64,000 nucleotides of DNA from Methanobacterium sp. (lineage in GTDB: Archaea; Methanobacteriota; Methanobacteria; Methanobacteriales; Methanobacteriaceae): positions 33,941 through 97,940 of the forward strand of contig PLXT01000115.1 in NCBI GenBank assembly GCA_003151535.1, in the 5' to 3' direction. Shown here in pieces: positions 11,647-60,700 of the stretch. The notes below the pieces were generated by a model. It was not told the origin of the DNA, made no database searches, and saw nothing but the letters and a program-made list of their open reading frames with translations. How positions within the stretch are numbered: the first letter of the stretch is position 1; each line of letters starts with the position of its first letter. Both the position numbers and the translations under genes were made by a program.

Positions 11647-13251
11647 TTAGGATGCTAATTTTTTCAAGGCTTTATTTAGCTCTCCATGTGACAAACCTTG
11701 TGAAGTTTTGATTTGTATAAATTCTTCTGGGAAATACTCGTAATCATCATAAGCGTTATCATCCAGAATAACGAAGTTTCGTGGCCTGCCATTCCTTTCA
11801 AACCATGTGTTGATTTGCTCAGCTCTCAATTTTTTATCAATATTTATAGTTTTACCCATAATATTACCTGTAACACCAGCATCGCGTAATAAGGTTTTTA
11901 GTTCCTTGAACTTCATTTGATTTTTGCAATCAGATATAATTACAATACTAGCCTTGGTGCGATCTGTGAGTTGATTCAAATTGTTTATACAATCTTTATC
12001 CCAGCCATAGTTGCAATCATGATGTCCATTACTAGCATTTCGAATGTCCGTTATAAGAACACCATGAATATCCAAAAATATAATGCTTTTTTGTGAATCT
12101 AATAGCTCATGATCTTTATGCTCGTAATCAAACTCTTTCAGTATTGTTTTTATTGAATTCAATATGCCACCCAGTTTATCATCTGAATTCACAATGTTCC
12201 AAGGAATATCCTCATGATGGGTTTCCTTTAAAAGCCTATCAATATATGGTGTAAGCTTATCCCAGTTTTCCAAAATATCTCCATCATTTTTGGAGAACTT
12301 CCAGTATCTTAACGGATCTCTCTTCCTTAATTCAAATCTAACCTTTTGTTTGGCTTTATCGATATCCAGCCACATCTTAACGAGAAGAATGCCATTCTTT
12401 AATAGATTCCTTTCCCAATCACATACACTACCCATAAACGCCTCATATTGCTCTGTATCACAATAGCCCATAGCTGGTTCAATAACACCACGATTATACC
12501 ATGATCTATCAAAGAAGACTAATTCACCTTCTTTGGGTAATGCTTTCTCGTATCTCATGAACCAATTCTTCTTTTCCTCTGGAGTGGGTACACCAAACGT
12601 TTCAACACGATAATGCTTGGGATTTAAGAATTCAGTAACGCTTTGAATATTACTACCCTTACCTGCAGCATCACGACCTTCAAATATTACCAACACCTTT
12701 TTATTAGTCTTTACTACCCACTCTTGAAGCTTTAATAGCTCAATTTGGAGGTAATACTTTTCTTTTAAAAACTTATTGTAGGTTATCTTATCTGTGTCAT
12801 CATTAACACTATTGATAATTTCGTACTTTTTATCGGTCTTTATCCTTTCCTTGTACTTTTCAACAATACTCTTAATATTGCTTCGGACCTCTAATAGATA
12901 ATGAGTAACGGCCTTTTCTTGGTCATGGCCGTTAAAAAGCTTTTTAAGGAGCTTTATAAGCCCCAATTCTTTTAGAAGGCTTTCATCGTATTCTGCTTTA
13001 AGATCTAATATAGCCTTCCTTAACGCCTCTGGCGAGGGTTTATCGTACTTGAAGTGGACGAGGGAATCAATTAGCTTATTAGCGAAGAAATTTAGCTTAT
13101 ATTTATACTTGACAGTGTAGCGCAGATTAATCAGCAGATCTTTAACGTTTTCAACTACATCATCCAGTATTGTATCCTTCTGAGTAAAGTAGTTTTCGTT
13201 TAATAATCTTCTTCTTAGTTTCTGAGCCAATAAGCCTTTGATAGAATTCAT
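11647..13251 (-). CDS. polyphosphate kinase 2 (PPK2) family enzyme fused to a C-terminal HAD-like (DxDG) domain, with about 190-aa helical N-terminal extension
   Basis: PPK2 Walker A FEGRDAAGKGS plus downstream PPK2 lid region (FFDRSWYNRG); C-terminal IIFLDIHGVLITD...ILDDNAY HAD-type motifs. Confidence 0.7.
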   Translation of the reverse strand: MNSIKGLLAQKLRRRLLNENYFTQKDTILDDVVENVKDLLINLRYTVKYKYKLNFFANKLIDSLVHFKYDKPSPEALRKAILDLKAEYDESLLKELGLIKLLKKLFNGHDQEKAVTHYLLEVRSNIKSIVEKYKERIKTDKKYEIINSVNDDTDKITYNKFLKEKYYLQIELLKLQEWVVKTNKKVLVIFEGRDAAGKGSNIQSVTEFLNPKHYRVETFGVPTPEEKKNWFMRYEKALPKEGELVFFDRSWYNRGVIEPAMGYCDTEQYEAFMGSVCDWERNLLKNGILLVKMWLDIDKAKQKVRFELRKRDPLRYWKFSKNDGDILENWDKLTPYIDRLLKETHHEDIPWNIVNSDDKLGGILNSIKTILKEFDYEHKDHELLDSQKSIIFLDIHGVLITDIRNASNGHHDCNYGWDKDCINNLNQLTDRTKASIVIISDCKNQMKFKELKTLLRDAGVTGNIMGKTINIDKKLRAEQINTWFERNGRPRNFVILDDNAYDDYEYFPEEFIQIKTSQGLSHGELNKALKKLAS

Positions 13252-19613: not shown

Positions 19614-21164
19614 TTAGATTATGAGTTTCTTGCGAATTTCTTCAAAAGTAGTGATATTCTCAAACTCACCGTCCCTATACAATACTTTTAATGCACCCTC
19701 TTTTTCTTCGGCCATACTAACTTTTTCAATCAGTTCGTAAGTACCGCTTTCCCCAATCACTTTTCCCAATCCTGTTGCTGATTTTTTAGTACCGTCATCA
19801 GTTATGGGATCTTTGAATATTTCACGCTCTTCACCGTTTACGATGACGAAAGTAGCCTTCATCGCAAACCCAAAGGTGTCACGTGTATTAAACTGATATG
19901 TAAAGCTACCCACACCCAATACAATATTGGTGCTAGCGAAGCCTTTATCTGCTAAGCGCTGACAAATTTCTTCGGCACGTGCAATCGTGATAGAATCTCC
20001 GTACAAAGCCCCAATGTGCGTATCTAAGACTTTATAACCTTGGTCATTAATAGTGCCGCCGAAGACTTCCCATAGCAATTCAATAACTCCTTTGCATGCT
20101 GGGATATCTTTTTCTTCGATAAGCCTATCTGGCATGAATCTATTATCTAGGGTATAATATTTACCGTCAACTATAGTAAACTCTTTGTGACCACAAATTA
20201 TATCAACAGGATTACCACTGTCAGGACGTAAAACCAATTTACCATCACGAGCTAAAATTTCATTCTTCAGTGTACGAACATGCTGGGTACAGACTTTCCA
20301 TAAATCCCATGTGTCAGCTACAACACCCAATATACCTGTAGGATATATAGTGAACAGTCTGCGGATTGTTTCTACTTCATCATCTTTTTTACCTGCGCAC
20401 ATTACGCTGTGTTCAGTTGCAGGTACGGTACCAATAACTTGACCTTGTGCATTATAGTATTTTCTAGCACCATTAATAACTGGCAGTGTATCAGATCCCA
20501 TGAATGATGTGGCATGACCCAATCCAGAAGTTATTGATGGTCCAATGCCATCCATTCCACGCATGCTGAAATCATGCGCCTGCCAATCCACAAACCACGC
20601 TCTTCCTATGTCAGTTTTTTGCTGCCAATAAGACAAAAGTTTACGATAAGAATGTGCAATAGTTGCAGAAGTCATTGGCTTCCACAGCAAGTTAGAGATG
20701 ATTGTTTCAAGGAAGTTTGTAACCCAAAAAAAATCTGGGTGTGTATTTTTTATCGTTAATACTGGAACGCGAATTGGAACCAATGTACCTTCTTCCAATA
20801 TTTTCACTTCAATGGGTAGATACCCTAAGTCATGTAACCGTTCAATACGACTTACATCATAATTAACACCCAAAAGCAAAGAATATTCTCTTTTGATCTC
20901 TTGGCAAACTACATTCTTTGGTTTACTAAAAAACCCATACTGGAAGAGAGAATGTATTTCAATCATTGTCATTTGTTGACCAAATGACACTACTTGTTCA
21001 CAACCTTGTGGAGCATACTTATTACTTCTGGGCGTAAAGTTTGAACACACAAATGTTGTACCATCAGGATATTGAGGGGGGTGAGAAGTTTTGTACCCAT
21101 CACATAATAAAAATGGGTTAATAATGTCTGACACTAATTGCCAATTAATAGATTGATTGCTCAT
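19614..21164 (-). CDS. nicotinamide phosphoribosyltransferase (NAMPT/NadV) family enzyme; alternatively a NARP1-type nicotinamide ADP-ribose transferase
   Basis: LLCDGYKTSH, HDFSMRGMDG, GSDT, ATEHSV, RPDSGNP, GDSI and FKDPI motifs align along the whole NAMPT sequence. Confidence 0.85.
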   Translation of the reverse strand: MSNQSINWQLVSDIINPFLLCDGYKTSHPPQYPDGTTFVCSNFTPRSNKYAPQGCEQVVSFGQQMTMIEIHSLFQYGFFSKPKNVVCQEIKREYSLLLGVNYDVSRIERLHDLGYLPIEVKILEEGTLVPIRVPVLTIKNTHPDFFWVTNFLETIISNLLWKPMTSATIAHSYRKLLSYWQQKTDIGRAWFVDWQAHDFSMRGMDGIGPSITSGLGHATSFMGSDTLPVINGARKYYNAQGQVIGTVPATEHSVMCAGKKDDEVETIRRLFTIYPTGILGVVADTWDLWKVCTQHVRTLKNEILARDGKLVLRPDSGNPVDIICGHKEFTIVDGKYYTLDNRFMPDRLIEEKDIPACKGVIELLWEVFGGTINDQGYKVLDTHIGALYGDSITIARAEEICQRLADKGFASTNIVLGVGSFTYQFNTRDTFGFAMKATFVIVNGEEREIFKDPITDDGTKKSATGLGKVIGESGTYELIEKVSMAEEKEGALKVLYRDGEFENITTFEEIRKKLII

Positions 21165-37141: not shown

Positions 37142-37792
37142 TTATAAATAAAATGATATAGGCTTATTTCTATATCTGTAGCTCTCTCCCAAGGAGCTAG
37201 CATTAACAAAGGTAGTACCATCCATAATTTTAGTCCCATAACTATGATGAACATGGCCACAGACGTGATATCTTGGCTTAACTTCTACAATTTTCTTATA
37301 TAATTCCTCACAGCCAACCCTTAGTCCAGCGTAAGTGTTATCCAGTATGCCATATAGTGGTCCGTGGGTCATAACTATATCCATACCTTGTGGTATAGTC
37401 TCCCATTTCTTTGCAATGGCGGCTCCCCTGTCCACATTAAACGCCCAATCATTAAATCTAGGCTGCCAAGGGCTACCGTATATCTTTATACCATTCAATT
37501 CAACCATTTTATCCATAAGATACACAATACCCATATCCTGGAACATTGGTGCGATCTCATGGTTATCCTCAAACGCCCAATCGTGATTACCAGCAATGAA
37601 GCATTTATAGCGACATTTTAAATTGCCAAACCAAGTTAAAAAGCTTACAATTTCCTTTGTTTTACCCTGCATAGTAATATCTCCAGCATGTAAAACTATT
37701 GTATTTTCATAATCCGTTATGAGAGAGGCTAAGTCTTTTGATAACTCATAATGTCGATTATGGGTGTCACTAATAGTAATTATTTTTATCAC
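37142..37792 (-). CDS. calcineurin-like metallophosphoesterase
   Basis: DTH, GD, GNHD and GH motifs (ISDTHNRH, AGDITMQG, AGNHDWAFE, CGHVHH). Confidence 0.6.
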   Translation of the reverse strand: MIKIITISDTHNRHYELSKDLASLITDYENTIVLHAGDITMQGKTKEIVSFLTWFGNLKCRYKCFIAGNHDWAFEDNHEIAPMFQDMGIVYLMDKMVELNGIKIYGSPWQPRFNDWAFNVDRGAAIAKKWETIPQGMDIVMTHGPLYGILDNTYAGLRVGCEELYKKIVEVKPRYHVCGHVHHSYGTKIMDGTTFVNASSLGESYRYRNKPISFYL

Positions 37793-39693
37793 ATCGCAAT
37801 CATTAAATTGATATTTTTACGTTCAATATCAACGCTGGTTACTTGGACAAGAACTTCATCGCCCAATCGTATAACACGCCCAGTATTATGTCCTTTCACA
37901 CAGTAGTGCTTCAGGTCAGTTATATAAGTATCCCCTTGTATTTCGCTAACTCTTACCATACCATCAACCTTGTTTTCAATCAATTCGACGAATACACCAT
38001 ATTCTGTAATGCTTGTTATTATACCCTTATATAAGAACCCAATTCTTTGACTCATATACACACTCTGCATATATTTAATACTCTCCCGTTCAGCCTTTTG
38101 CGCTTTGAGTTCACAATTGCTTAAGTATAAAGCCCAATGTTCCAATTGTTCAATACTGGGTGTGGGCTTTTGGGTTAAAAATCTATTTAAGAGTCTGTGT
38201 ACTATAATATCAGGATATCTTCTAATGGGGCTTGTAAAATGAGCATAATCTTCAAACCCCAATCCATAATGCCCCATATTTTTTGTAGTATAAAAAGCTT
38301 TTTGCATTGTTCTAACAACCAAATTAGAAACTAGATTTTCTTCAGTCTTACCCTTAACATCCACCAATAATTTATTCAAAGATTTTGCAATTTCTTGAGG
38401 AGAGGTTATCCTAATGTCATAATCAAACTCTTTTATAAATTTTTTCAAATCTAAAAGCTTTTCAGTGCTTGGTTCTTCGTGAACCCTACTGATAACAGGA
38501 TAGCTGTTATTTTTTAAAATACGTGCAACGGCTTTATTAGCCAAAAGCATAAATTCTTCAATCAACTTATTAGCATCTTTACTAGTCTTGAATATTATAT
38601 CAGTAGGCTTACCATCTACTAATTTAAATCTTATTTCATCTTTATCGAACGTTAGAGAACCATCTTTTAACCTATCCTTCCTTAACTTATTCGCTAGAAC
38701 ATTCAAGTCGATAATACACTTATCAGTACCATATACACTTGAATTATCTTCAATAACCATTTGTGCTCCTTCATACGTATACCTATGATTGGAATGGATA
38801 ATTGTCTTGCCAAACCACTCATGTAGAATATTAGCATCTTTATCCATTGTAAATATAACCGAGAAACACAACTTATCTTCATACGGCCTTAAGCTACATA
38901 GTTCATTGGATAGCCTCTCTGGTAACATAGGGACAACACGATCCACTAAATACACGCTAGTACCTCTGCGATAAGCCTCTTTATCTAAATCAGTGTCTGA
39001 TTTTAGATAATGCGATACATCAGCGATATGTACGCCAACTTGTATATTTCCATCAGCCCATTCCACAGATAATGCATCGTCAAAATCTTTAGCGTCTTCA
39101 GGATCAATTGTAAATGTTGTAACATTACGCATGTCTTTACGGCTTAAAATTTCATCTTCCGTTATTTCGGCAGATATAGATTTTGCTTCAGCCAAAACAT
39201 CATATTCGAAATTATACGGTAAACCATATTCATGTAGTATTGAATGAATTTCAGCATCATTATTGCCAGCATCCCCCAAAACCTGTATAACTTGTCCGTG
39301 TGGATTTTTACTATTTTTAGCCCAGTATTTTATCCTAACAATAGCTTTTTGACCATCTTTAGCTTTATTTAATTCGTTTAAAGGAATAAAAATATCCACG
39401 AGCAATTTATTACTATCAGGAATTAAATATGCACCAGTGGAAACCATGTTAATTGTACCAACATAGTCTTTTTTTGTCCTCCCAACTATTTTTGTAACAA
39501 CACCCTCTATATTTCTCCCGCCACCTTTAACTATAAGCACTTTAACAAGATCCAGATGTAATGCGTGATTAGTATTAGCTTTACTGATATATATCTCTTT
39601 AGGTAGCTTATCACTCTGAAGATAAGCGCTACCACTGGAATTAAAATTAATCGTACCTTTCAAAACATCTCCAATATTAATCATGTCGCCCAC
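37789..39693 (-). CDS. RNase R / RNase II-family 3'-5' exoribonuclease (RNB domain plus C-terminal S1 domain)
   Basis: RNB catalytic motif DPEDAKDFDDALS, cold-shock-like N-terminus, S1-like C-terminus (GIITSITEYGVFVEL). Confidence 0.8.
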   Translation of the reverse strand: MGDMINIGDVLKGTINFNSSGSAYLQSDKLPKEIYISKANTNHALHLDLVKVLIVKGGGRNIEGVVTKIVGRTKKDYVGTINMVSTGAYLIPDSNKLLVDIFIPLNELNKAKDGQKAIVRIKYWAKNSKNPHGQVIQVLGDAGNNDAEIHSILHEYGLPYNFEYDVLAEAKSISAEITEDEILSRKDMRNVTTFTIDPEDAKDFDDALSVEWADGNIQVGVHIADVSHYLKSDTDLDKEAYRRGTSVYLVDRVVPMLPERLSNELCSLRPYEDKLCFSVIFTMDKDANILHEWFGKTIIHSNHRYTYEGAQMVIEDNSSVYGTDKCIIDLNVLANKLRKDRLKDGSLTFDKDEIRFKLVDGKPTDIIFKTSKDANKLIEEFMLLANKAVARILKNNSYPVISRVHEEPSTEKLLDLKKFIKEFDYDIRITSPQEIAKSLNKLLVDVKGKTEENLVSNLVVRTMQKAFYTTKNMGHYGLGFEDYAHFTSPIRRYPDIIVHRLLNRFLTQKPTPSIEQLEHWALYLSNCELKAQKAERESIKYMQSVYMSQRIGFLYKGIITSITEYGVFVELIENKVDGMVRVSEIQGDTYITDLKHYCVKGHNTGRVIRLGDEVLVQVTSVDIERKNINLMIAM

Positions 39694-48357: not shown

Positions 48358-48433
48358 TTATACTAAAACAAAATAATAAAATCAAGTGTAGTTATACTAC
48401 TAAATGAAAAAAGACGCTGAGAACGTCTTCTAG

Positions 48434-48504
48434 AGCAGCTAGATGGGCTCGAACCATCGTCCTCGATTCGGCAAACCGATGCACTACCACTGTGCTATAA
48501 CTGC
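48434..48504 (-). tRNA. tRNA-Gly (anticodon GCC)
   Basis: manual cloverleaf: acceptor GCAGTTA/TAGCTGC, T-loop GGTTCGAGCC, anticodon loop TTGCCGA. Confidence 0.6.
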
Positions 48505-48588
48505 GAATGAATTGAAACTGTTAACTATTTAGCCAGCCTAAGCTGTTTCTAGTTATTACCACGTAGAGGTAAGTTAACATTAATAACC

Positions 48589-48660
48589 AGCGGCATTTCG
48601 GTCTCAAACCGAACCCCTCAGCTTGGAAGGCTGACATGCCATCAACAACACCTATGCCGC
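48589..48660 (-). tRNA. tRNA-Gly (anticodon TCC), non-canonical T-loop
   Basis: perfect acceptor GCGGCAT/ATGCCGC; anticodon stem TCAGC/GCTGA, loop CTTCCAA; T-loop TTTGAGA. Confidence 0.5.
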
Positions 48661-48915: not shown

Positions 48916-49155
48916 TTAATAATTATTATGTTTTATTTTTTGAATATACTTATCTGTAACCAATTTTCCATTACGTCCAACATGGTATTTACCACAAATA
49001 GCACATCTATACGCTACAGCTTTGGTTAACTGATTATCCTTTAAGTTAAGACTCTTAGCCGCTGTTATAGCCTCATCCTGTGTGTTAAATTCAAATTTGG
49101 GTTTGTATACTCGTTGCCCATCTAAACCAATATGCGAAAATGTTTGACATTTCAT
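48916..49155 (-). CDS. small zinc-ribbon protein (start trimmed to MKCQTF...)
   Basis: CxxC-type pair CAICGKYHVG plus upstream Cys; predicted promoter immediately upstream. Confidence 0.4.
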   Translation of the reverse strand: MKCQTFSHIGLDGQRVYKPKFEFNTQDEAITAAKSLNLKDNQLTKAVAYRCAICGKYHVGRNGKLVTDKYIQKIKHNNY

Positions 49156-49176
49156 ATATAAAAATTTAACAGTTTT

Positions 49177-49205
49177 ACAAATATACAAAAATATATTCAA
49201 AAAAT
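49177..49205 (-). promoter_or_regulatory. putative promoter (-7 TATATTTG box) for 48916..49155
   Basis: reverse complement of acaaatata; -33 spacing suboptimal. Confidence 0.3.
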
Positions 49206-49231
49206 ATTTTCTTCAAAGAACTAATTATCGG

Positions 49232-49319
49232 TCCCCCCGACAGGATTCGAACCTGTGATGGTGATTTCTCACATCTGATTAAAAGTCAGGACCGTTCGGC
49301 CAACTACGGATACGAGGGG
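49232..49319 (-). tRNA. type-II (long variable arm) tRNA with atypical anticodon loop CUUUUAA (formal anticodon UUU)
   Basis: acceptor CCCCTCG/CGGGGGG, T-loop GGTTCGAATCC, variable-arm hairpin GTGA-GAAA-TCAC, discriminator A; Leu/Ser/Tyr-like architecture does not fit the anticodon. Confidence 0.45.
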
Positions 49320-49328
49320 TTGTGTTAG

Positions 49329-49402
49329 TTCCTCCTGCGGGACTCGAACCCAGCAACCCAACGTTTAAGAAACGCTTACTCTACCAATTGAGCTAAGGAG
49401 GA
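49329..49402 (-). tRNA. tRNA-Lys (anticodon CTT)
   Basis: acceptor TCCTCCT/AGGAGGA, D-arm GCTC/GAGT, anticodon loop TTCTTAA, T-loop GGTTCGAGTCC. Confidence 0.6.
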
Positions 49403-49493
49403 ATGTGCATATATCTCCCCTTATCTCAAAGAGGAGGTTATCGTTTATATTTTCGCTTAATAGTCATACAATACTTTTTATTAATTTAAAAAT

Positions 49494-49570
49494 TGGAGCC
49501 TCTTGAGTTACTCGAAAACTCTCTATTCCTCATTACAAGTGAGGTGCTCTACCATACGAGCATAAGAGGC
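49494..49570 (-). tRNA. tRNA-Thr (anticodon TGT), CCA encoded
   Basis: acceptor GCCTCTT/AAGAGGC, anticodon stem CCTCA/TGAGG, loop CTTGTAA, genomic 3' TCCA. Confidence 0.6.
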
Positions 49571-49637
49571 AAATTTTGAATTTTCTATATACCTTACCGT
49601 AACAGGCAGTTTATGCAAATTCTAAACAGTTCCAAAG

Positions 49638-49722
49638 TGGGGCTGATAGGACTCGAACCTACTAAGCCTTTTGAGCAGAAGTTTTACAGACTTCCCATAC
49701 ACTCCAACGTATGCGCATCCCC
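49638..49722 (-). tRNA. tRNA-Tyr (anticodon GTA), type II
   Basis: 85 nt; acceptor GGGGATG/CAGCCCC (A5.G68 mismatch), anticodon stem GAAGT/ACTTC, loop CTGTAAA, long variable arm. Confidence 0.55.
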
Positions 49723-49745
49723 ATTAATATCAAACAATTCCAAAG

Positions 49746-49833
49746 TGGGACTGATAGGACTCGAACCTACTAAGCCTTTTGAGCCTCTGATAAAAGCCAG
49801 AGATTACACTTTCCAACAGTGTACACCATTCCC
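49746..49833 (-). tRNA. tRNA-Tyr-like paralogue with disrupted anticodon arm (8-nt loop GCUUUUAU); possible pseudo-tRNA or non-canonical decoder
   Basis: 3' half (T-arm, variable arm, acceptor) nearly identical to tRNA-Tyr at 49638..49722; anticodon stem CTCTG/CAGAG encloses an 8-nt loop; 3 nt between D- and anticodon stems. Confidence 0.35.
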
Positions 49834-49857
49834 ATTATATCAATCTTCTAATACTAG

Positions 49858-49930
49858 TTGTTCTGTCTGGACTTGAACCAAAACTAATCCACCTTCAGAG
49901 GATGGTGTGCTTGCATTACACTACAGAACA
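49858..49930 (-). tRNA. tRNA-Gln (anticodon CTG)
   Basis: U1-A72 acceptor TGTTCTG/CAGAACA, anticodon stem CCATC/GGTGG, loop CTCTGAA. Confidence 0.5.
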
Positions 49931-49991
49931 ATACATGAATTTCTACGCTTCCTTCCAATACGTTCTATGAAATTCTAACAGTCTCCTGCAG

Positions 49992-50062
49992 TTCCCCCCG
50001 AAGGACTTGAACCCTCACCCAATGCGCTCAAAACGCAAGATACTACATTATACTAAGGGGGA
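49992..50062 (-). tRNA. tRNA-Gln-like (anticodon TTG) with weak D-arm and one anticodon-stem mismatch
   Basis: acceptor TCCCCCT/GGGGGGA, anticodon loop TTTTGAG, T-loop GGTTCAAGTCC; D-stem GTAT/GTAT is wobble-only. Confidence 0.4.
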
Positions 50063-50068
50063 ATATTG

Positions 50069-50139
50069 TTGCCCCACTAGGATTCGAACCCAGACAAACA
50101 GAGTCAAAGTCTGTCGAACTACCATTATTCTATAAGGCA
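50069..50139 (-). tRNA. tRNA-Gln (anticodon TTG)
   Basis: acceptor TGCCTTA/TGGGGCA, D-arm GAAT/GTTC, anticodon stem ACAGA/TCTGT, loop CTTTGAC, T-loop GGTTCGAATCC. Confidence 0.5.
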
Positions 50140-50144
50140 ATATG

Positions 50145-50233
50145 TCAGGATGACAGGGCTCGAACCTGCATAAGATTTTTAAGGTCCATTCTCCGTTCCA
50201 AGCGGAGTCGTCTTCCATTGACTACACATCCTG
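50145..50233 (-). tRNA. atypical 89-nt tRNA (anticodon loop CUUGGAA, formal UGG) with 21-nt variable region lacking a clear hairpin
   Basis: perfect acceptor CAGGATG/CATCCTG, T-loop GGTTCGAGCC, anticodon stem CTCCG/CGGAG; 3-bp D-stem. Confidence 0.4.
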
Positions 50234-50258
50234 ATTATTTTATTCAAAGAACTTAAAG

Positions 50259-50330
50259 TCTAACTGACAGGGTTCGAACCTGCGTGGTCTACATCCCAAA
50301 TGTAGTGCCTAACCATTCGGCCACAGCTAG
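50259..50330 (-). tRNA. tRNA-Pro (anticodon TGG)
   Basis: acceptor CTAGCTG/CAGTTAG, anticodon stem CTACA/TGTAG, loop TTTGGGA, T-loop GGTTCGAACC. Confidence 0.55.
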
Positions 50331-50336
50331 AAAATA

Positions 50337-50365
50337 AAAAACCCCAATTTTTACAAACTGGGGTT
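50337..50365 (-). terminator. hairpin plus U-tract between the promoter/small-ORF unit and the tRNA cluster (terminator or processing element)
   Basis: AACCCCAG-loop-TGGGGTT followed by TTTTATTTT on the minus strand. Confidence 0.4.
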
Positions 50366-50387
50366 AAATTGTTATTGTTAGTATTTT

Positions 50388-50480
50388 TTATAAATCGTTA
50401 AAATACAACATACCCAGTCCATTAAGAGGTGTGCCCCCTTGTGGTTTTTGTTTCGGTTGATATGTGGTATACGTTGTCAT
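50388..50480 (-). CDS. small ORF (about 29 aa, MTTYTTYQPKQKPQGGTPLNGLGMLYFNDL) in the leader unit upstream of the tRNA cluster
   Basis: ATG about 11 nt downstream of the predicted TSS of promoter 50498..50536; followed by hairpin 50337..50365. Confidence 0.25.
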   Translation of the reverse strand: MTTYTTYQPKQKPQGGTPLNGLGMLYFNDL

Positions 50481-50497
50481 TGTTAATATAAATATAA

Positions 50498-50536
50498 GCA
50501 AATATACAAAAGATTTTTTAAAAAGCAAATATTTTT
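50498..50536 (-). promoter_or_regulatory. Bacteroidetes-type promoter (-33 TTTG / -7 TATATTTGC) built on a doubled GCAAATAT motif
   Basis: reverse complement of gcaaatata (50498-50506) and caaa (50526-50529), 20-nt spacing. Confidence 0.55.
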
Positions 50537-50555
50537 AAAGATTTTTTTAAAAATA

Positions 50556-50713
50556 AAAAAGTGGGGATTTATTTGCCTCCCCCATAGCTAGTTAACCATT
50601 TATATTAACGCCAGTGGCATCTGCTTTTTTCATTCTTTGTTACTAGTTAGTTAGCGATGCTAACCAAGAATTCTGTATGACGATATCCATACACCCATTA
50701 CTGGGAGGACCAT
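50556..50713 (-). ncRNA. candidate small transcript (about 150 nt; contains a 17-codon ORF) from promoter 50726..50757 to a terminator hairpin
   Basis: promoter upstream; hairpin GGGGAGGCAAATAAATCCCCAC plus U-run at 50556-50590; no long ORF. Confidence 0.35.
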
Positions 50714-50725
50714 GTGCAGTCCGAT

Positions 50726-50757
50726 GCAAATATACGAAAGGTTTTATTAAAATCAAA
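50726..50757 (-). promoter_or_regulatory. Bacteroidetes-type promoter (-33 TTTG / -7 TATATTTGC)
   Basis: reverse complement of gcaaatata (50726-50734) and caaa (50754-50757), 20-nt spacing. Confidence 0.5.
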
Positions 50758-54878: not shown

Positions 54879-55358
54879 TTATTTTGTATTACCAAGTTTT
54901 TGCTTTTCGTATATCCTATTATTAAAATCATCCAATAAGCTTTGAGGAATTTTAATCCTCCTGGAATCAAACTCATTCAATATTTCTTTCTTTGTAAAGC
55001 TACCTTCGACAATTCCATCGGTCCATTGATTTAACCATAAGCCCCAGCTCTTTTTACCTGTAATAACACCTCTGATAATATTGGGATGTCTGGTAATGAT
55101 CGAATTAATTTTATACTTCCCATTTTCAAATTCTTTGAATGTAAGTTTACCTTCTGGGCCATTAATATCAAAATCAATATCTATTTGGCTTCCACAAAAT
55201 GTAAGTATTCCAGATCTATATGATGTAAGAAAAAATGAGAATATCTCATTAAAATTGTCGGAGTATTTTTTCCTTTGTCTGGTACCCAGTGAGTTTTTTC
55301 TTATTTCACTGGGTAGAATGCGTCCTGCTGTTTCATGTTGCTCAATTTTGTAAAGCAT
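54879..55358 (-). CDS. hypothetical protein (start trimmed to MLYKIEQ...; overlaps the tRNA 3' end by a few nt)
   Basis: the ORF-track start lies within the tRNA at 55351..55420. Confidence 0.4.
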   Translation of the reverse strand: MLYKIEQHETAGRILPSEIRKNSLGTRQRKKYSDNFNEIFSFFLTSYRSGILTFCGSQIDIDFDINGPEGKLTFKEFENGKYKINSIITRHPNIIRGVITGKKSWGLWLNQWTDGIVEGSFTKKEILNEFDSRRIKIPQSLLDDFNNRIYEKQKLGNTK

Positions 55359-55420
55359 GCTGGATTCGAACCAACATTGCCCGCTAAACGCGGGAGTTCT
55401 AGCCATTAAACTAATGCTTC
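55351..55420 (-). tRNA. tRNA with anticodon TTA (UUA; would read UAA) - candidate ochre-suppressor tRNA
   Basis: canonical cloverleaf: acceptor GAAGCAT/ATGCTTT, D-arm GTTT-AATGGCTA-GAAC, anticodon stem CCCGC/GCGGG with loop GTTTAGC, T-arm GTTGG-TTCGAAT-CCAGC. Confidence 0.45.
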
Positions 55421-55652
55421 TAACTGTTAGTATCACATCGGCAAACATAATACTAACAGAAAGGACTTCAGCCTTTAATGAGATTGCCGCCTCATGTATA
55501 GCTATACCTTTTTTGTGGAGGATAAGAAATATGATTTCTTCTGTTCTTCCTGATTGCAAATCAGGTGACCACACCTAGCAGTCCCATCCCCCATATTAAA
55601 ATGGTCCAATAAGTGATTAATTTATTGTTCGGTCATCAACCAACCATATTAG

Positions 55653-55726
55653 TAGCCCCACACGGAGTCGAACCGAAATTTACTCATGGAAAGTGAGTCG
55701 TCCTAAATCCATTAGACGATAGGGCC
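55653..55726 (-). tRNA. tRNA-Glu (anticodon TTC)
   Basis: D-arm GTCT...AGGAC as in bacterial tRNA-Glu; anticodon stem ACTCA/TGAGT, loop CTTTCCA. Confidence 0.5.
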
Positions 55727-55786
55727 ATATGATGTGTTAGGGCCAGCAACTAGCCCCATTCTCGGTGGACACATCAACCACACCTG

Positions 55787-55858
55787 TGGTACGGGTGAGA
55801 CTTGAACTCACAACGCCAGCCTCTTCAGGGCTGCGCTCTACATTGGAGCTACCGCACC
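55787..55858 (-). tRNA. tRNA-Phe (anticodon GAA)
   Basis: acceptor GGTGCGG/CCGTACC, D-arm GCTC/GAGC, anticodon stem CAGCC/GGCTG, loop CTGAAGA, T-loop GAGTTCAAGTCTC. Confidence 0.6.
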
Positions 55859-55996
55859 ATATAACGAAGGCATATCGGTCGTTCCCATTTTACTTTAACC
55901 CCTGCCATACTTTCTAAGTCGCTAAACTTATATCCTTTGAGATGTTAAAAATGATAAACAAATAATCTGCACACAATCATTTATTTATTTCGTTAG

Positions 55997-56067
55997 CGGA
56001 ATATCACGGATTCGAACCGAGAACATCTGATAGACAATCAGAGATTATACCATTTCACTAATATTCC
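55997..56067 (-). tRNA. tRNA-Asp (anticodon GTC)
   Basis: perfect acceptor GGAATAT/ATATTCC, discriminator G, anticodon stem TCTGA/TCAGA, loop TTGTCTA, T-loop GGTTCGAATCC. Confidence 0.5.
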
Positions 56068-56074
56068 ATTAAAA

Positions 56075-56110
56075 CAAAAAACCCTTCAACTTTTAGGCTG
56101 AAGGGTTAAT
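56075..56110 (-). terminator. hairpin plus U-tract between the promoter/small-ORF unit and the tRNA cluster
   Basis: 7-bp stem CCCTTCA/TGAAGGG followed by TTTTTTGTTTT on the minus strand. Confidence 0.45.
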
Positions 56111-56126
56111 CATTAGTTATATTCCG

Positions 56127-56210
56127 TTAACTTTTGACAAAACTCAGCCTTCTGGGACGATCCGCCTCAGTTGCAAAATTAAATTCAAATATGTTGTTAA
56201 CGTTTGTCAT
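56127..56210 (-). CDS. small ORF (27 aa, MTNVNNIFEFNFATEADRPRRLSFVKS) in the leader unit; N-terminus MxNxNNI shared with 60541..60618
   Basis: promoter 36 nt upstream; terminator-like hairpin downstream; conserved start with a second unit. Confidence 0.3.
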   Translation of the reverse strand: MTNVNNIFEFNFATEADRPRRLSFVKS

Positions 56211-56252
56211 TGTTTAATTGTTGTGAGACTATGTCTCGGTTTATAAATATAT

Positions 56253-56285
56253 GCAAATATACGAAAAGTTTCTATAAAAGCAAAT
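56253..56285 (-). promoter_or_regulatory. Bacteroidetes-type promoter (-33 TTTG / -7 TATATTTGC)
   Basis: reverse complement of gcaaatata (56253-56261) and caaa (56281-56284), 20-nt spacing. Confidence 0.55.
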
Positions 56286-56300
56286 ATTTTTTAAGTTTTT

Positions 56301-59099: not shown

Positions 59100-59111
59100 A
59101 ATATTATTTTG

Positions 59112-59195
59112 TAGCCGCGAAAGGACTCGAACCTTCACGCTTTTAAGGGCGGCAGATTTTGAGTCTGCAGTGGCTACCAATTACACCACGCGGCC
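59112..59195 (-). tRNA. tRNA-Leu (anticodon CAA), type II
   Basis: 84 nt; acceptor GGCCGCG/CGCGGCT, D-loop AATTGGTAG, anticodon stem GCAGA/TCTGC, loop CTCAAAA, long variable arm. Confidence 0.55.
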
Positions 59196-59396
59196 ATTTA
59201 TTATTACAATGATTTCACGTGGTCTTACCAACGTTGCCTTTCCTGTAATTTCTTCTATTCTTTTCTTCGGAATATCATAATGATCTTTATGAAACCAGCA
59301 TTTCTTGATATTCAAATCATTTGCCATTACATGCAAATTTTCAATTGAATAAGGTTTACACACCAAATGTCTCATAGTATCATAATAATACTCCAT
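59181..59396 (-). CDS. small hypothetical protein (about 72 aa, start trimmed to MEYYYDTMRHLV...) between two tRNA genes
   Basis: the ORF-track N-terminus overlaps tRNA-Leu(TAG). Confidence 0.3.
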   Translation of the reverse strand: MEYYYDTMRHLVCKPYSIENLHVMANDLNIKKCWFHKDHYDIPKKRIEEITGKATLVRPREIIVIINGRVV

Positions 59397-59398
59397 AG

Positions 59399-59480
59399 TG
59401 ACCCTGACAAGCATCGAACTTGCATGCCTTGCGGCCTCCGTTTCTAGGACGGAGCTGTATCCCAATTCCAGCACAGGGCC
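59399..59480 (-). tRNA. tRNA-Leu (anticodon TAG), type II
   Basis: acceptor GGCCCTG/CAGGGTC, anticodon stem TCCGT/ACGGA with loop CCTAGAA (C33), variable-arm hairpin GCC-GCAA-GGC. Confidence 0.45.
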
Positions 59481-59484
59481 ATTG

Positions 59485-59608
59485 AGAAGGAAGCAGGTGT
59501 CGAACCTGCACAAGAACTAAGCGGCTAGCCCATTGCTGGGTTCAGGATGATAGTTACTCCCTCTTTTAACCGTCCACTGCGTGTACCAATTCCGCCATTC
59601 CTTCCTTC
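59485..59608 (-). ncRNA. 124-nt tRNA-like RNA: perfect 7-bp acceptor (GAAGGAA/TTCCTTC) and canonical T-arm enclosing a large non-canonical insert (intron-containing or aberrant tRNA, unassigned)
   Basis: T-arm GCAGG-TTCGACA-CCTGC; D-loop-like AATTGGTA near the 5' end; no canonical anticodon arm; packed 4 nt and 2 nt from neighbouring tRNA ends. Confidence 0.35.
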
Positions 59609-59610
59609 AG

Positions 59611-59722
59611 TAGGGCGAGAGGGAGTCGAACCCTCACGGGCATTTCTGCCCAATAGATTAACGGAGCGACGAATAGAAGACCCCGTTAAGTCTATCTCGG
59701 CTACCAATTACGACACCGCCCC
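59611..59722 (-). ncRNA. 112-nt tRNA-like RNA (Leu-like type II features; anticodon stem ATAGA/TCTAT enclosing a 13-nt loop CTTAACGGGGTCT and an extra 21-nt segment)
   Basis: acceptor GGGGCGG/TCGCCCT, D-loop AATTGGTAG, variable-arm hairpin GGGCA-GAAA-TGCCC, T-arm GAGGG-TTCGACT-CCCTC; too long for a standard tRNA. Confidence 0.35.
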
Positions 59723-60316: not shown

Positions 60317-60388
60317 AATTTTTAGTAGTCCCTGAGAATTCTGAGATCTCGACCCTCGCCATGTAAAGACGATGCTCTTCCTCTGAGC
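60317..60388 (-). tRNA. tRNA-Val (anticodon TAC) with non-canonical T-loop
   Basis: acceptor GGTCCCT/AGGGACT, D-arm GCTC-AGAGGAA-GAGC, anticodon stem TCGTC/GGCGA, loop TTTACAT; T-loop CTCAGAA lacks TTCGA. Confidence 0.4.
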
Positions 60389-60405
60389 TAAGGGACCATA
60401 TTATT

Positions 60406-60476
60406 TTATACGTGAACTGGGTGTAATAATCGAAATTACGTAGCAAGATTTGCAGTCTTGAGCCTAACCACTCGGC
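60406..60476 (-). tRNA. tRNA-Cys (anticodon GCA)
   Basis: acceptor GCTGGGT/ACCCAGT, discriminator U, 3-bp D-stem GCC/GGC, anticodon stem CAAGA/TCTTG, loop CTGCAAA, T-arm GTAAT-TTCGATT-ATTAC. Confidence 0.5.
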
Positions 60477-60494
60477 CAACCCAGCATATAAACG

Positions 60495-60525
60495 AAAAAC
60501 CCAGCCTTTTAGAGCTGGGTTTTTA
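60495..60525 (-). terminator. hairpin plus U-tract between the promoter/small-ORF unit and the tRNA-Cys/Val pair
   Basis: AACCCAGC-loop-GCTGGGTT followed by TTTTCG on the minus strand. Confidence 0.45.
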
Positions 60526-60540
60526 ATTAGTTTGTATTAA

Positions 60541-60618
60541 TCAAACAAATAGCCCAGCAGTGCCTAGTAACACTAGTACACATAAACTAAGGACCAATAT
60601 GTTGTTAAAATTTTTCAT
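60541..60618 (-). CDS. small hydrophobic ORF (25 aa, MKNFNNILVLSLCVLVLLGTAGLFV) in the leader unit; N-terminus MxNxNNI shared with 56127..56210
   Basis: ATG about 9 nt downstream of the predicted TSS; terminator-like hairpin downstream. Confidence 0.3.
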   Translation of the reverse strand: MKNFNNILVLSLCVLVLLGTAGLFV

Positions 60619-60633
60619 TTCTAATAAATATAA

Positions 60634-60666
60634 GCAAATATACAAAAGGTTTTTTAAAAAGCAAAT
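60634..60666 (-). promoter_or_regulatory. Bacteroidetes-type promoter (-33 TTTG / -7 TATATTTGC)
   Basis: reverse complement of gcaaatata (60634-60642) and caaa (60662-60665), 20-nt spacing. Confidence 0.55.
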
Positions 60667-60700
60667 ATTATTTCAATAAATATTTACATGTTTTATTGAA

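What the first reader, a model, noticed from the sequence alone, without database searches (positions are those of the whole stretch)
50337..50757. Recurrent unit upstream of each tRNA cluster: Bacteroidetes-type promoter, 17-29-codon ORF and terminator-like hairpin
The same architecture appears four times: 50498-50536 -> 50480..50388 -> hairpin 50337-50365, then the tRNA cluster; 50726-50757 -> about 150-nt transcript -> hairpin 50556-50590; 56253-56285 -> 56210..56127 -> hairpin 56075-56110, then tRNA-Asp and others; 60634-60666 -> 60618..60541 -> hairpin 60495-60525, then tRNA-Cys/Val. Two of the small ORFs share the N-terminus M-x-N-x-N-N-I. The arrangement resembles attenuator or leader-peptide control, or small protein genes whose transcripts read through into the tRNA arrays. 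It looks like a conserved, previously unannotated regulatory module for phage tRNA expression.
Basis: seen in the sequence. Interest (0 to 1): 0.65.

Follow-up and report, generated by a model that had tools for sequence, protein, structure and literature searches.

The report
Leader-peptide attenuators controlling phage tRNA arrays
In front of each tRNA gene array this phage has a tiny gene whose peptide spells out the amino acids served by the tRNAs behind it, followed by a switchable terminator, which most likely lets the phage make more of a tRNA only when that tRNA runs short, a kind of control I found no report of for tRNA genes.

Summary
Each has a Bacteroidota-type promoter, a 25-30-codon ORF and a strong intrinsic terminator, and the first tRNA starts about 10 nt later with no room for a promoter of its own. 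The fourth unit (50556-50757) is a separate small structured RNA.

U1 residues 2-18, TTYTTYQPKQKPQGGTP, precede tRNAs Pro, Gln, Tyr, Thr, Lys and Gly.

In 65 non-redundant units from viral and metagenome contigs, four peptide classes match four tRNA sets that together cover all 20 amino acids (59/65 concordant). The signal exists only in the ORF frame.

Two cultured phages group their tRNAs differently, and their peptides follow. In Cellulophaga phage phi4:1 this holds down to Arg and Leu isoacceptor codons.

ORF codons ~19-26 pair with the terminator's 5' arm, with compensatory changes. This is an antiterminator that a ribosome translating past it would disrupt.

Best reading: ribosome-mediated attenuation that feeds back on phage tRNA supply. 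No Rfam family matches and eight literature searches found no report. It is a new variant of a known mechanism. No expression data exist.

The parts
50488..50542 (-). U1 promoter: -33 TTTG (50526-50529), -7 TATATTTG (50499-50506), conserved start of transcript CTTATATTTAT (50488-50498)
50388..50480 (-). U1 leader ORF, 30 codons: MTTYTTYQPKQKPQGGTPLNGLGMLYFNDL. Regulatory run is codons 2-18 (50427-50477), every residue in {T,Y,Q,P,K,G}.
   Evidence: run of 17; set frequency 0.31
50413..50422 (-). U1 region 2 (ATGGACTGGG, codons 20-23), complementary to the terminator 5' arm; proposed antiterminator strand
50331..50365 (-). U1 intrinsic terminator: AACCCCAGTTT-gtaa-AAATTGGGGTT plus T-run (-14.5 kcal/mol); tRNA-Pro begins at 50330
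49230..50330 (-). tRNA array behind U1: Pro(tgg) x2, Gln(ttg) x2, Gln(ctg), a Tyr-like paralogue (49742-49832), tRNA-Tyr(GTA) at ~49638-49722 (missed by ARAGORN), Thr(tgt), Lys(ctt), Lys(ttt)
48433..48660 (-). tRNA-Gly(tcc) and tRNA-Gly(gcc), distal end of the same group, separated from the rest by a promoter-like site and a ~90-aa ORF; terminator-like hairpin at 48409-48431 closes the array
56243..56297 (-). U3 promoter: -33 TTTG (56281-56284), -7 TATATTTG (56254-56261), conserved start of transcript CATATATTTAT (56243-56253)
56127..56210 (-). U3 leader ORF, 27 codons: MTNVNNIFEFNFATEADRPRRLSFVKS. Regulatory segment is codons 8-17, FEFNFATEAD (56160-56189).
   Evidence: Not significant on its own; assigned by homology to class C leaders FEFNFDAAEAD in L004/L005
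56143..56150 (-). U3 region 2 (AGGCTGAG, codons 21-23), complementary to terminator 5' arm and loop (CTTCAGCCT)
56070..56107 (-). U3 intrinsic terminator: AACCCTTCAGC-ctaaaa-GTTGAAGGGTT plus T-run (-15.6 kcal/mol); tRNA-Asp begins at 56067
55350..56067 (-). tRNA array behind U3: Asp(gtc), Phe(gaa), Glu(ttc), Lys(ttt); only a weak tRNA-Ala(tgc) candidate at 55515-55592
60624..60678 (-). U4 promoter: -33 TTTG (60662-60665), -7 TATATTTG (60635-60642), conserved start of transcript CTTATATTTAT (60624-60634)
60541..60618 (-). U4 leader ORF, 25 codons: MKNFNNILVLSLCVLVLLGTAGLFV. Regulatory run is codons 8-18, LVLSLCVLVLL (60565-60597), using Leu codons TTG, CTT, TTA and CTA.
60553..60558 (-). U4 region 2 (GCTGGG, codons 21-22), complementary to terminator 5' arm CCCAGC
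60490..60521 (-). U4 intrinsic terminator: AACCCAGCT-ctaaaa-GGCTGGGTT plus T-run (-14.0 kcal/mol); tRNA-Cys begins at 60485
60326..60485 (-). tRNA-Cys(gca) 60414-60485 and tRNA-Val (anticodon TAC read by eye; Rfam 43 bits, missed by ARAGORN) 60326-60397
59111..59722 (-). Further tRNAs of the Cys/Val/Leu group after two small ORFs: two tRNA-like genes with ~25-nt inserts (59610-59722, 59484-59604), Leu(tag) 59398-59480, Leu(caa) 59111-59195
50556..50757 (-). NOT part of the attenuator family: promoter 50726-50757, ~170-nt structured transcript, hairpin ~50562-50584 plus T-run; probably a small stable RNA of unknown function
   Evidence: (z = -2.8)

Best explanation
U1, U3 and U4 are most likely ribosome-mediated transcription attenuators that gate the phage's tRNA arrays.

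Proposed sequence of events:
1. Transcription starts at a strong Bacteroidota-type promoter.
2. The first 25-30 codons are translated.
3. A run of about 10-20 codons in this leader ORF consists almost only of codons for the amino acids whose tRNAs lie downstream.
4. Directly after the run (codons ~19-26) lies a segment, region 2, that can pair with the 5' arm of the intrinsic terminator standing 19-32 nt after the stop codon.

When one of the needed aminoacyl-tRNAs is scarce:
- The ribosome stalls in the run.
- Region 2 stays free and pairs with the terminator's 5' arm, so the terminator cannot form.
- RNA polymerase reads on into the tRNA genes, which start about 10 nt after the T-run and have no promoter of their own.

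When all the tRNAs are plentiful:
- The ribosome runs over region 2 to the stop codon.
- The terminator forms and transcription ends.

The result is demand-driven negative feedback on the phage's own tRNA supply, one sensor per array.

Shown here: the anatomy, the match between peptide and tRNAs, the two alternative pairings and their covariation, and conservation. Inferred: that the ORF is translated, that stalling decides between the two structures, and the direction of the response.
For: 1. Anatomy in the window.
- Promoter, ORF and terminator are in place, and the tRNA follows directly.

2. Peptide-to-tRNA match.
- The promoter/transcript-start motif found 45 IMG/VR loci and 107 metagenome stretches, of which 80 were returned as loci.
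- ARAGORN gives four downstream tRNA sets: {P,Q,T,Y,G,K}, {C,V,L}, {D,F,E,A} and {W,H,S,I,N,R,M}. Together these are all 20 amino acids.
- Peptides have unbroken runs of own-set residues of 14-23, 5-10, 3-8 and 17-20, against set background frequencies of 0.31, 0.16, 0.23 and 0.30.
- Class assigned from tRNAs equals class assigned from peptide composition in 59 of 65 non-redundant units.
- The own-set fraction is 0.59 in the ORF frame and 0.27 and 0.22 in the other two frames.
- Residue order differs between homologues while composition is kept, for example TYTTYQPKQKPQGGTP, TYTYYQPKTQGGKTP and TTKTYQTKQYQPKGGTPQGTTG.

3. Natural experiments where tRNAs are grouped differently.
- Cellulophaga phage phi4:1, first leader: MKIQRLHLQELEQPIISGGTGV precedes Pro, Glu, Gln, His, Leu(tag), Leu(taa), Arg(acg). 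All 11 codons of the run can be read by those tRNAs.
- phi4:1, second leader: ..TKTGITVIDKTKGARAY.. precedes Ala, Lys, Ile, Gly, Met, Asp, Thr, Val, Arg(tct), Met, Tyr.
- The Arg codon is CGT in the first leader and AGA in the second, matching the Arg isoacceptor of each array.
- Phage Lbo-JY46: MKITRQHTQFWFPTGTGLGML precedes Pro, Thr, Phe, Gln, His.

4. Terminator.
- 62 of 65 units have a hairpin of -11.5 to -18.4 kcal/mol within 60 nt of the stop codon.
- In classes A and B the first tRNA mostly starts 10-12 nt after the T-run begins.

5. Antiterminator.
- With the 3' arm left out, the minimum-energy fold of all three window leaders pairs the 5' arm with codons 20-23.
- Duplex energy of each leader with its own terminator arm averages -12.3 kcal/mol, against -9.4 for arms of other units.
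- None of 20,000 within-class permutations reached the own-arm value.
- Region 2 always begins right after the regulatory run.
- RNAalifold on class A and class C leaders cut before the 3' arm predicts only this helix: 9 pairs and 6 pairs, 3 compensatory pairs in each.
- Covarying examples: AGGCTGA:TCAGCCT (window), GGTCGAG:CTCGACC, AGTCGAG:CTCGACT, ATGGGTT:AACCCAT, GGCTGGG:CCCAGCC.
Against: - There are no expression data of any kind. Translation of the ORFs, termination at the hairpins and regulated read-through are all inferred.
- Window U3 alone is not significantly enriched (9/26 residues, p = 0.12). It is assigned by homology.
- Its array also holds a tRNA-Lys, and no confident tRNA-Ala was found.
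- Class D antiterminators are weak (-7 to -12 kcal/mol, z about -1).
- phi4:1 unit 1 does not show the pairing in its minimum-energy fold.
- Individual shuffle tests pass p <= 0.05 in only 23 of 57 units.
- Relatedness of the sequences inflates the permutation statistics.
- In classes A and D the stop codon lies 6-9 codons beyond region 2, so a terminating ribosome would not sit directly on it.
- No clear anti-antiterminator (1:2 pairing) was established, so the state without translation is unclear.
- phi4:1 leader 2 has no ATG; only GTG or ATA are available in frame.
- Class B peptides also look like a plain hydrophobic helix.
- Transcription-translation coupling has not, to my knowledge, been demonstrated for these hosts.
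Confidence: 0.8

Rival explanations
1. The leader is translated and does sense the listed tRNAs, but the output is not the classic choice between antiterminator and terminator. Ribosome position might instead control Rho access, RNase processing or stability of the precursor. Alternatively the logic could be reversed, with stalling lowering tRNA output.
For: - Class D and phi4:1 unit 1 have only weak region 2 pairings.
- In classes A and D the stop codon lies well beyond region 2.
- No 1:2 pairing was established (one search shows only a possible one in U1).
Against: - A canonical terminator is present in 62 of 65 units.
- The complementary segment sits in a constant place right after the regulatory run.
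- Compensatory changes occur in that helix.
- All of this is what the classic scheme predicts, and none of it is needed for the alternatives.
Confidence: 0.1
2. The small ORFs are ordinary genes for small proteins, for example a membrane peptide for U4. Each is its own promoter-gene-terminator cassette, and the tRNAs are expressed simply by leaky read-through.
For: - The cassette architecture looks like a phage moron.
- Class B peptides are hydrophobic, and the N-termini are conserved.
- Phage T5 also has many small ORFs among its tRNAs.
Against: - It does not explain why four peptide classes, and three differently grouped leaders in two cultured phages, each list the amino acids of the tRNAs behind them.
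- It does not explain why residue order is free while composition is fixed.
- It does not explain why the conserved C-terminal part coincides with a segment complementary to the terminator.
- T5 small ORFs show neither a terminator before the tRNA nor a composition match.
Confidence: 0.05
3. The codon run is read directly by tRNA anticodons on the naked RNA, as in a T-box, without translation.
For: Codons in the run are complementary to the downstream anticodons.
Against: - The run is always in frame with a start codon and a stop codon 22-34 codons apart, and the signal exists in that frame only.
- No T-box or other Rfam family matches.
- There is no Stem I or T-box motif.
- One RNA would have to bind 10-20 tRNAs.
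Confidence: 0.03
4. Chance resemblance: AT-rich intergenic DNA with a repeated promoter, spurious short ORFs and ordinary terminators.
For: Window U3 alone is not statistically enriched.
Against: - There are runs of 17 own-set residues at a set frequency of 0.31, about 1e-9 per start position.
- 59 of 65 units are concordant.
- The frame control is clean.
- The pattern recurs independently in phi4:1 and Lbo-JY46.
Confidence: 0.01

Closest known systems
Multivalent leader-peptide attenuators of amino-acid biosynthesis operons (ilvL of ilvGMEDA; also thrL, hisL, trpL, leuL, pheL) in Enterobacteria (from established knowledge)
   Same: - A short leader ORF with a run of regulatory codons.
- An intrinsic terminator before the first regulated gene.
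- An antiterminator that shares the terminator's 5' arm.
- Ribosome position decides between the two structures.
- Several amino acids are sensed at once, as in ilvL (Leu, Val, Ile) and thrL (Thr, Ile).
   Different: - The regulated genes are tRNA genes, not biosynthetic enzymes.
- The product sensed (aminoacyl-tRNA) is made directly from the regulated genes, so the loop is much shorter.
- Up to 7-10 different amino acids are listed in one leader.
- The elements are phage-encoded and use Bacteroidota-type promoters.
- There is no sequence similarity, and no Rfam leader family matches.
pheM leader / pheST attenuator of E. coli (from established knowledge)
   Same: A leader peptide rich in one amino acid controls, by attenuation, a gene of the decoding apparatus (Phe-tRNA synthetase) in response to the supply of charged tRNA.
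   Different: - It controls a synthetase, not tRNAs.
- It senses a single amino acid.
- It is a cellular gene.
T-box riboswitches (Rfam RF00230)
   Same: A transcription attenuator that reports on the state of a particular tRNA through a codon-like element.
   Different: - A T-box binds uncharged tRNA directly to a structured leader, without translation.
- T-boxes have one specifier codon.
- They regulate synthetase, biosynthesis or transport genes.
- No T-box match was found here.
Small ORFs and stable RNAs in the tRNA region of phage T5 (record NC_005859)
   Same: Promoters, short ORFs of 27-60 codons and small stable RNAs of unknown function are interspersed with tRNA genes. The U2 RNA may be comparable to the T5 stable RNAs.
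   Different: - T5 small ORFs are not followed by a terminator before the tRNA.
- Their composition does not mirror the downstream tRNAs.
Short ORFs acting as amino-acid-responsive attenuators in other phyla, for example the polycysteine leaderless ORFs of mycobacteria (bioRxiv 10.1101/834739, listed)
   Same: Short ORFs enriched in one amino acid regulate the genes downstream in an operon.
   Different: - They sense a single amino acid.
- They regulate metabolic genes.
- The mechanism is not tied to a terminator placed directly before tRNA genes.

Membership tests
Ribosome-mediated (leader-peptide) transcription attenuators | Short ORF with start and stop codon in the 5' leader of the regulated transcript | tested here: met
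   Window ORFs have 30, 27 and 25 codons. ORFs of 22-34 codons (up to 41 where an upstream in-frame ATG extends the called ORF) are conserved in 65 non-redundant units. phi4:1 unit 2 lacks an ATG and has only GTG or ATA in frame.
Ribosome-mediated (leader-peptide) transcription attenuators | Cluster of regulatory codons for the amino acid(s) tied to the regulated genes | tested here: met
   Own-set runs of 17-23 (A, D), 5-10 (B) and 3-8 (C) residues. 59 of 65 units concordant, and the signal is frame-specific. Isoacceptor-level match in phi4:1. Window U3 is weak on its own.
Ribosome-mediated (leader-peptide) transcription attenuators | Intrinsic terminator between the leader ORF and the first regulated gene, with no promoter after it | tested here: met
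   The three hairpins are the three best minus-strand terminator-like sites in 46-64 kb. 62 of 65 units have one, at -11.5 to -18.4 kcal/mol. The tRNA mostly starts 10-12 nt after the T-run begins.
Ribosome-mediated (leader-peptide) transcription attenuators | Mutually exclusive antiterminator that uses the terminator 5' arm and lies where ribosome position can decide | tested here: met
   Shown by the folds and by own-versus-other duplex energies with within-class permutation. Region 2 sits right after the run. RNAalifold finds the helix with compensatory pairs in classes A and C. It is weak in class D and in phi4:1 unit 1, and the class B alignment failed.
Ribosome-mediated (leader-peptide) transcription attenuators | Read-through rises when the cognate charged tRNA is limiting | not testable with these tools
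   Needs Term-seq, reporter assays or in vitro coupled transcription-translation.
Ribosome-mediated (leader-peptide) transcription attenuators | Usual target class: amino-acid biosynthesis or aminoacyl-tRNA synthetase genes | tested here: not met
   The regulated genes are tRNA arrays. This is where the element departs from the known kind.
Rfam leader families (Trp_leader, His_leader, Leu_leader, Thr_leader, PyrG_leader etc.) | Match to the covariance model at gathering score | tested here: not met
   Only tRNA passes the gathering score. The best leader-like hits are far below threshold: PyrG_leader 25 bits against 65, Trp_leader 13 against 41.
T-box riboswitch | Stem I with specifier loop and the conserved T-box sequence in the antiterminator | tested here: not met
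   No T-box hit even at E <= 10 on the leader.
Bacteroidota sigma-A-type promoter (-33 TTTG / -7 TAnnTTTG) | TTTG and TAnnTTTG separated by about 19 nt, upstream of the transcript | tested here: met
   Spacing is 19 nt in U1, U3, U4 and U2, and similar sites stand before other genes on the same strand. Function as a promoter was not tested.
T5-type small ORFs of phage tRNA regions | Short ORFs interspersed with tRNA genes, with their own promoters | tested here: inconclusive
   The layout is superficially similar. T5 ORFs lack the terminator before the tRNA and the composition match, so they are not the same device.

The most novel reading that the evidence does not exclude
The leaders may be codon-by-codon sensors of the infected cell's decoding capacity. 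On this reading the phage carries a complete back-up set of tRNAs, in four arrays that together cover all 20 amino acids. It switches on only the array whose tRNAs have become limiting. Limitation could come from mismatched codon usage, from host shut-off or degradation, or from host anticodon nucleases and other tRNA-depleting defences. That would make these the first attenuators found to control tRNA genes. It would also give a built-in alarm that couples tRNA-targeting immunity to the phage's countermeasure.
Probability: 0.35. Interest if true: 0.95.

Novelty: new variant of a known kind. Interest (0 to 1): 0.88.

Why it matters
- Phage tRNA genes are usually treated as passively expressed cargo, explained by codon usage or by escape from tRNA-cleaving defences. 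A leader peptide that enumerates the downstream tRNAs implies that supply is measured and corrected, array by array. In phi4:1 this reaches isoacceptor resolution.
- Leader-peptide attenuation, a textbook mechanism, would be extended to RNA genes and to a direct product-feedback loop.
- It would be evidence that transcription and translation are coupled closely enough for attenuation in Bacteroidota.
- It explains why tRNAs are grouped as they are in these genomes.
- It gives a simple rule for annotation: the peptide predicts the tRNA content, including tRNAs that search programs miss, such as the Tyr gene here.
- It offers compact natural sensors of the availability of specific tRNAs.
- The module is present in a cultured phage-host pair (Cellulophaga baltica and phi4:1), so it can be tested directly.

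Tried and rejected
- Close or distant DNA relatives of the window among deposited phages: none, apart from tRNA matches.
- Synteny through the neighbouring 596-aa protein: three distant loci from 300-500 kb contigs, with no unit next to that gene.
- Rfam at gathering score and at permissive thresholds on the leaders and on U2: nothing.
- RNAalifold on class B: MAFFT put the terminator arms out of register, so no consensus helix came out. Class B support therefore rests on the duplex analysis.
- U2 as a fifth leader: rejected. It has no conserved ORF. Its single relative (L033) keeps the hairpins but not the frame, and there it abuts a tRNA-Asp.
- Special codon choice in the leaders, such as a preference for slowly read NNT codons: no consistent departure from the phage's own codon usage.
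- T5 as a known precedent: its small ORFs do not fit.
- phi4:1 gp076 as a third unit: no promoter, terminator or match.
- Lbo-JY46 unit Y (Leu, Leu): only a weak match.
- Eight literature searches for leader-peptide or attenuator control of tRNA genes or phage tRNAs found nothing relevant. The library is incomplete, so this is absence of evidence only.
Full report
**1. What is in the window**

All relevant features lie on the minus strand. ARAGORN finds 18 tRNA genes between 48.4 and 60.5 kb. Rfam adds a tRNA at 60326-60397.

Three places share one architecture:
- a promoter of the Bacteroidota type, with TTTG, 19 nt, then TATATTTG;
- a conserved transcript start, C(A/T)TATATTTAT;
- an ATG ORF of 30, 27 or 25 codons;
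- 19-22 nt after the stop codon, a G+C-rich hairpin with a T-run;
- the first tRNA of an array about 10 nt after the T-run begins.

The 20-nt motif GTATATTTGCWTATATTTAT occurs only at these three places, against 0.11 expected. The three hairpins are the three best minus-strand terminator-like sites in 46-64 kb. There is no space for a promoter between the T-run and the tRNA. The tRNAs must therefore be transcribed through the terminator.

The bare promoter consensus is also found before ordinary genes.

The window looks like part of a large phage genome:
- It encodes NAMPT, a PPK2-HAD RNA-repair-type protein, an RNase II/R-like protein, ATP-grasp R2K and TnpB.
- It has no close relative among deposited phages.
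- One of its proteins is also on record on a contig in the 0.2-1 Mb size bin.

**2. The fourth unit is something else**

The stretch 50556-50757 has a promoter and a hairpin with a T-run. It lacks the conserved transcript start, and it is followed by the U1 promoter rather than by a tRNA.

Its ~170-nt transcript folds well (z = -2.8). Its only relative, in L033, conserves the hairpins with compensating changes but not a reading frame. There it lies directly before a tRNA-Asp.

No Rfam family matches it. I treat it as a small stable RNA of unknown function.

**3. The key observation: each peptide lists the downstream tRNAs**

U1 reads M-TTYTTYQPKQKPQGGTP-LNGLGMLYFNDL. The array behind it holds tRNAs for Pro, Gln, Thr, Lys and Gly. 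It also holds a type-II tRNA-Tyr(GTA) at ~49638-49722 that ARAGORN missed. That gene aligns with the Tyr tRNAs of related contigs. So residues 2-18 all belong to the six amino acids served downstream. The set has a background frequency of 0.31, giving about 3e-9 for such a run.

U4 (..LVLSLCVLVLL..) precedes Cys, Val and, further on, Leu tRNAs.

U3 (..FEFNFATEAD..) precedes Asp, Phe, Glu and Lys. U3 is not significant on its own.

**4. Relatives**

Scanning IMG/VR and the metagenome collection for the 20-nt motif returned 45 loci and 80 loci. The first ATG ORF after the motif falls into four peptide classes, each followed by its own tRNA set as called by ARAGORN:

| Class | Example peptide | Downstream tRNA set |
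|---|---|---|
| A | TYTTYQPKQKPQGGTP | Pro, Gln, Tyr, Thr, Gly, Lys |
| B | ILVLCLCVLVL | Cys, Val, Leu |
| C | FEFNFDAAEAD | Asp, Phe, Glu, Ala |
| D | INRHMNSINWIIRSNSN | Trp, Ser, His, Ile, Met, Asn, Arg |

- The four sets partition all 20 amino acids.
- Class D is not in the window. Gene order in relatives (Met, D, B, C, A) suggests it lies beyond 64000.
- For 65 non-redundant units, the class assigned from tRNAs agrees with the class assigned from raw peptide composition in 59.
- Four of the six exceptions, including window U3, are class C leaders whose flanks are rich in N, S and R.
- The own-set fraction is 0.59 in the ORF frame and 0.27 and 0.22 in the other frames.
- Between homologues the order of residues changes while the composition is kept, and synonymous codons vary freely.
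- Selection therefore acts on which codons are present in frame, not on a peptide sequence.

**5. Natural experiments in cultured phages**

Cellulophaga phage phi4:1 (NC_021788.1) keeps its tRNAs in one long row split by two copies of one promoter.

- The first leader, MKIQRLHLQELEQPIISGGTGV, is followed by a terminator. Then come Pro, Glu, Gln, His, Leu(tag), Leu(taa) and Arg(acg). The run QRLHLQELEQP contains only those six amino acids.
- In that run the two Leu codons used are TTA and CTA, and the Arg codon is CGT.
- The second leader (..TKTGITVIDKTKGARAY..) is followed by a terminator. Then come Ala, Lys, Ile, Gly, Met, Asp, Thr, Val, Arg(tct), Met and Tyr. Its Arg codon is AGA.
- The match therefore holds at the level of isoacceptors.

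Phage Lbo-JY46 has MKITRQHTQFWFPTGTGLGML, a terminator, then Pro, Thr, Phe, Gln and His. A second unit in that phage, before two Leu tRNAs, matches only weakly.

When the grouping of tRNAs changes, the peptide changes with it.

Phage T5, which also has small ORFs among its tRNAs, shows neither the terminator nor the match.

**6. Two alternative structures**

- 62 of 65 units have a hairpin of -11.5 to -18.4 kcal/mol within 60 nt of the stop codon.
- With the 3' arm left out, as in the nascent RNA, the minimum-energy fold of all three window leaders pairs the terminator's 5' arm with ORF codons 20-23.
- Across 57 unique units, the best duplex between the distal ORF and the unit's own 5' arm plus loop averages -12.3 kcal/mol. 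Against other units' arms it averages -9.4.
- None of 20,000 within-class permutations did as well.
- The pairing segment always starts one to three codons after the regulatory run.
- RNAalifold, given class A or class C leaders cut before the 3' arm, predicts this helix and nothing else, with three compensatory pairs in each class.
- Covarying examples: AGGCTGA:TCAGCCT (window U3), GGTCGAG:CTCGACC, AGTCGAG:CTCGACT, AGGTCA:TGACCT, ATGGGTT:AACCCAT, GGCTGGG:CCCAGCC.
- This also explains why the C-terminal parts of the peptides (GLGM.., TG..M.) are conserved.

The support is uneven:
- Class D and phi4:1 unit 1 are weak.
- The class B alignment failed.
- Related sequences inflate the permutation result.

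**7. Mechanism**

The anatomy is that of a leader-peptide attenuator.
- A ribosome stalled in the run, for lack of any of the listed aminoacyl-tRNAs, leaves region 2 free. Region 2 then takes the 5' arm, and polymerase reads into the tRNA genes.
- A ribosome that moves on over region 2 lets the terminator form.
- The outcome is negative feedback on tRNA supply.

All of this is inference from sequence. Translation, termination and regulated read-through have not been observed.

Open points:
- what happens without translation, since no firm 1:2 pairing was found;
- the 6-9 codons between region 2 and the stop codon in classes A and D.

**8. Comparison with known systems and novelty**

The device works like the multivalent attenuators ilvL and thrL and like pheM-pheST. 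It meets their structural criteria. It matches no Rfam leader or T-box model, and its targets are tRNA genes.

Eight full-text searches found no description of leader-peptide or attenuator control of tRNA genes or phage tRNAs.

I rate it a new variant of a known kind. It is well supported as a conserved feature and is testable in a cultured system.

Noticed in passing
window 48520-48588 (-): An HDV-like ribozyme candidate (Rfam HDV-F-prausnitzii, 33 bits against a gathering score of 44, E = 1e-4 in a local search). It starts exactly one base after the 3' end of tRNA-Gly(tcc) and lies before tRNA-Gly(gcc). The position matches the 'theta ribozymes' described next to phage tRNAs (PMC10879173).
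   Followed up: partly
Its hairpins are conserved with compensating changes in one related contig, where it abuts tRNA-Asp. No Rfam match. It may be comparable to the stable RNAs of unknown function in the T5 tRNA region.
   Followed up: partly
window ~49638-49722 (-) and 49742-49832 (-): A type-II tRNA-Tyr(GTA) that ARAGORN missed. Next to it is a paralogue with the same T-arm and acceptor end but a rebuilt anticodon arm, possibly with an 8-nt loop (..CTCTGGCTTTTATCAGAG..).
   Followed up: partly
window 50144-50233 (-), 49230-49319 (-); L005 8505-8592, 2973-3060, 1998-2085, 7842-7927: Many tRNA species come in two versions, a normal one of ~73 nt and a long one of 86-90 nt (Pro, Lys, Cys, Asp, Glu, Val). 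These tRNAs do not normally have a long variable arm. Not examined further.
   Followed up: no
window 59484-59604 (-) and 59610-59722 (-): Two tRNA-like genes with an insert of ~25 nt in the anticodon-loop region. ARAGORN calls them Asn(gtt) and Val(aac) with introns; Rfam gives a weak tRNA-Sec-like hit. Their identity is uncertain.
   Followed up: no
L013, L025, L031, L036, L041, L047 (class D units): In class D the terminator is followed by a conserved ORF of ~60-65 codons (MSEERYKKLG...) before the first tRNA (Trp). That attenuator would therefore also control a small protein gene.
   Followed up: no
L015, L016, L027, L029, L036 (872), L041 (4173), L111, L137: The same promoter motif also stands before tRNA-Met genes, at 160-400 nt distance and without a recognisable listing ORF. 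A separate Met array seems to have a different leader.
   Followed up: no
L002, L003 (21041-21112), L016, L022, L027, L029: Related contigs carry a tRNA with anticodon CTA (an amber suppressor, called 'Pyl' by ARAGORN). Some relatives may therefore reassign TAG.
   Followed up: no
window 3048-4358 (-); L018, L038, L062, L071, L086, L129, L134: A TnpB / IS605 OrfB gene lies in the window. In other contigs the same 20-nt promoter motif sits 5 nt before TnpB-like ORFs (MLKAFKYK..). The motif is therefore not exclusive to tRNA leaders.
   Followed up: no
window 49177-49217 (-), ORF 48916-49200 (-): A promoter-like site with two overlapping TAnnTTTG boxes and a ~90-codon ORF separate the Lys tRNAs from the two Gly tRNAs. 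A terminator-like hairpin at 48409-48431 closes the array.
   Followed up: no
window 11647-13251, 19614-21164, 37789-39693 (all -): Auxiliary genes typical of very large phages: PPK2 fused to a HAD domain of RNA-repair proteins, a nicotinamide phosphoribosyltransferase, and an RNase II/R-like exoribonuclease.
   Followed up: no
L160 (phage Lbo-JY46, PP438436.1): This phage is deposited as a Leptolyngbya (cyanobacterial) phage. It has leaders, promoter-like boxes (TTTG ... TAnnT..) and a tRNA-Pro 88% identical to those of the window. Either the module crosses host phyla or the relationship deserves a closer look.
   Followed up: no
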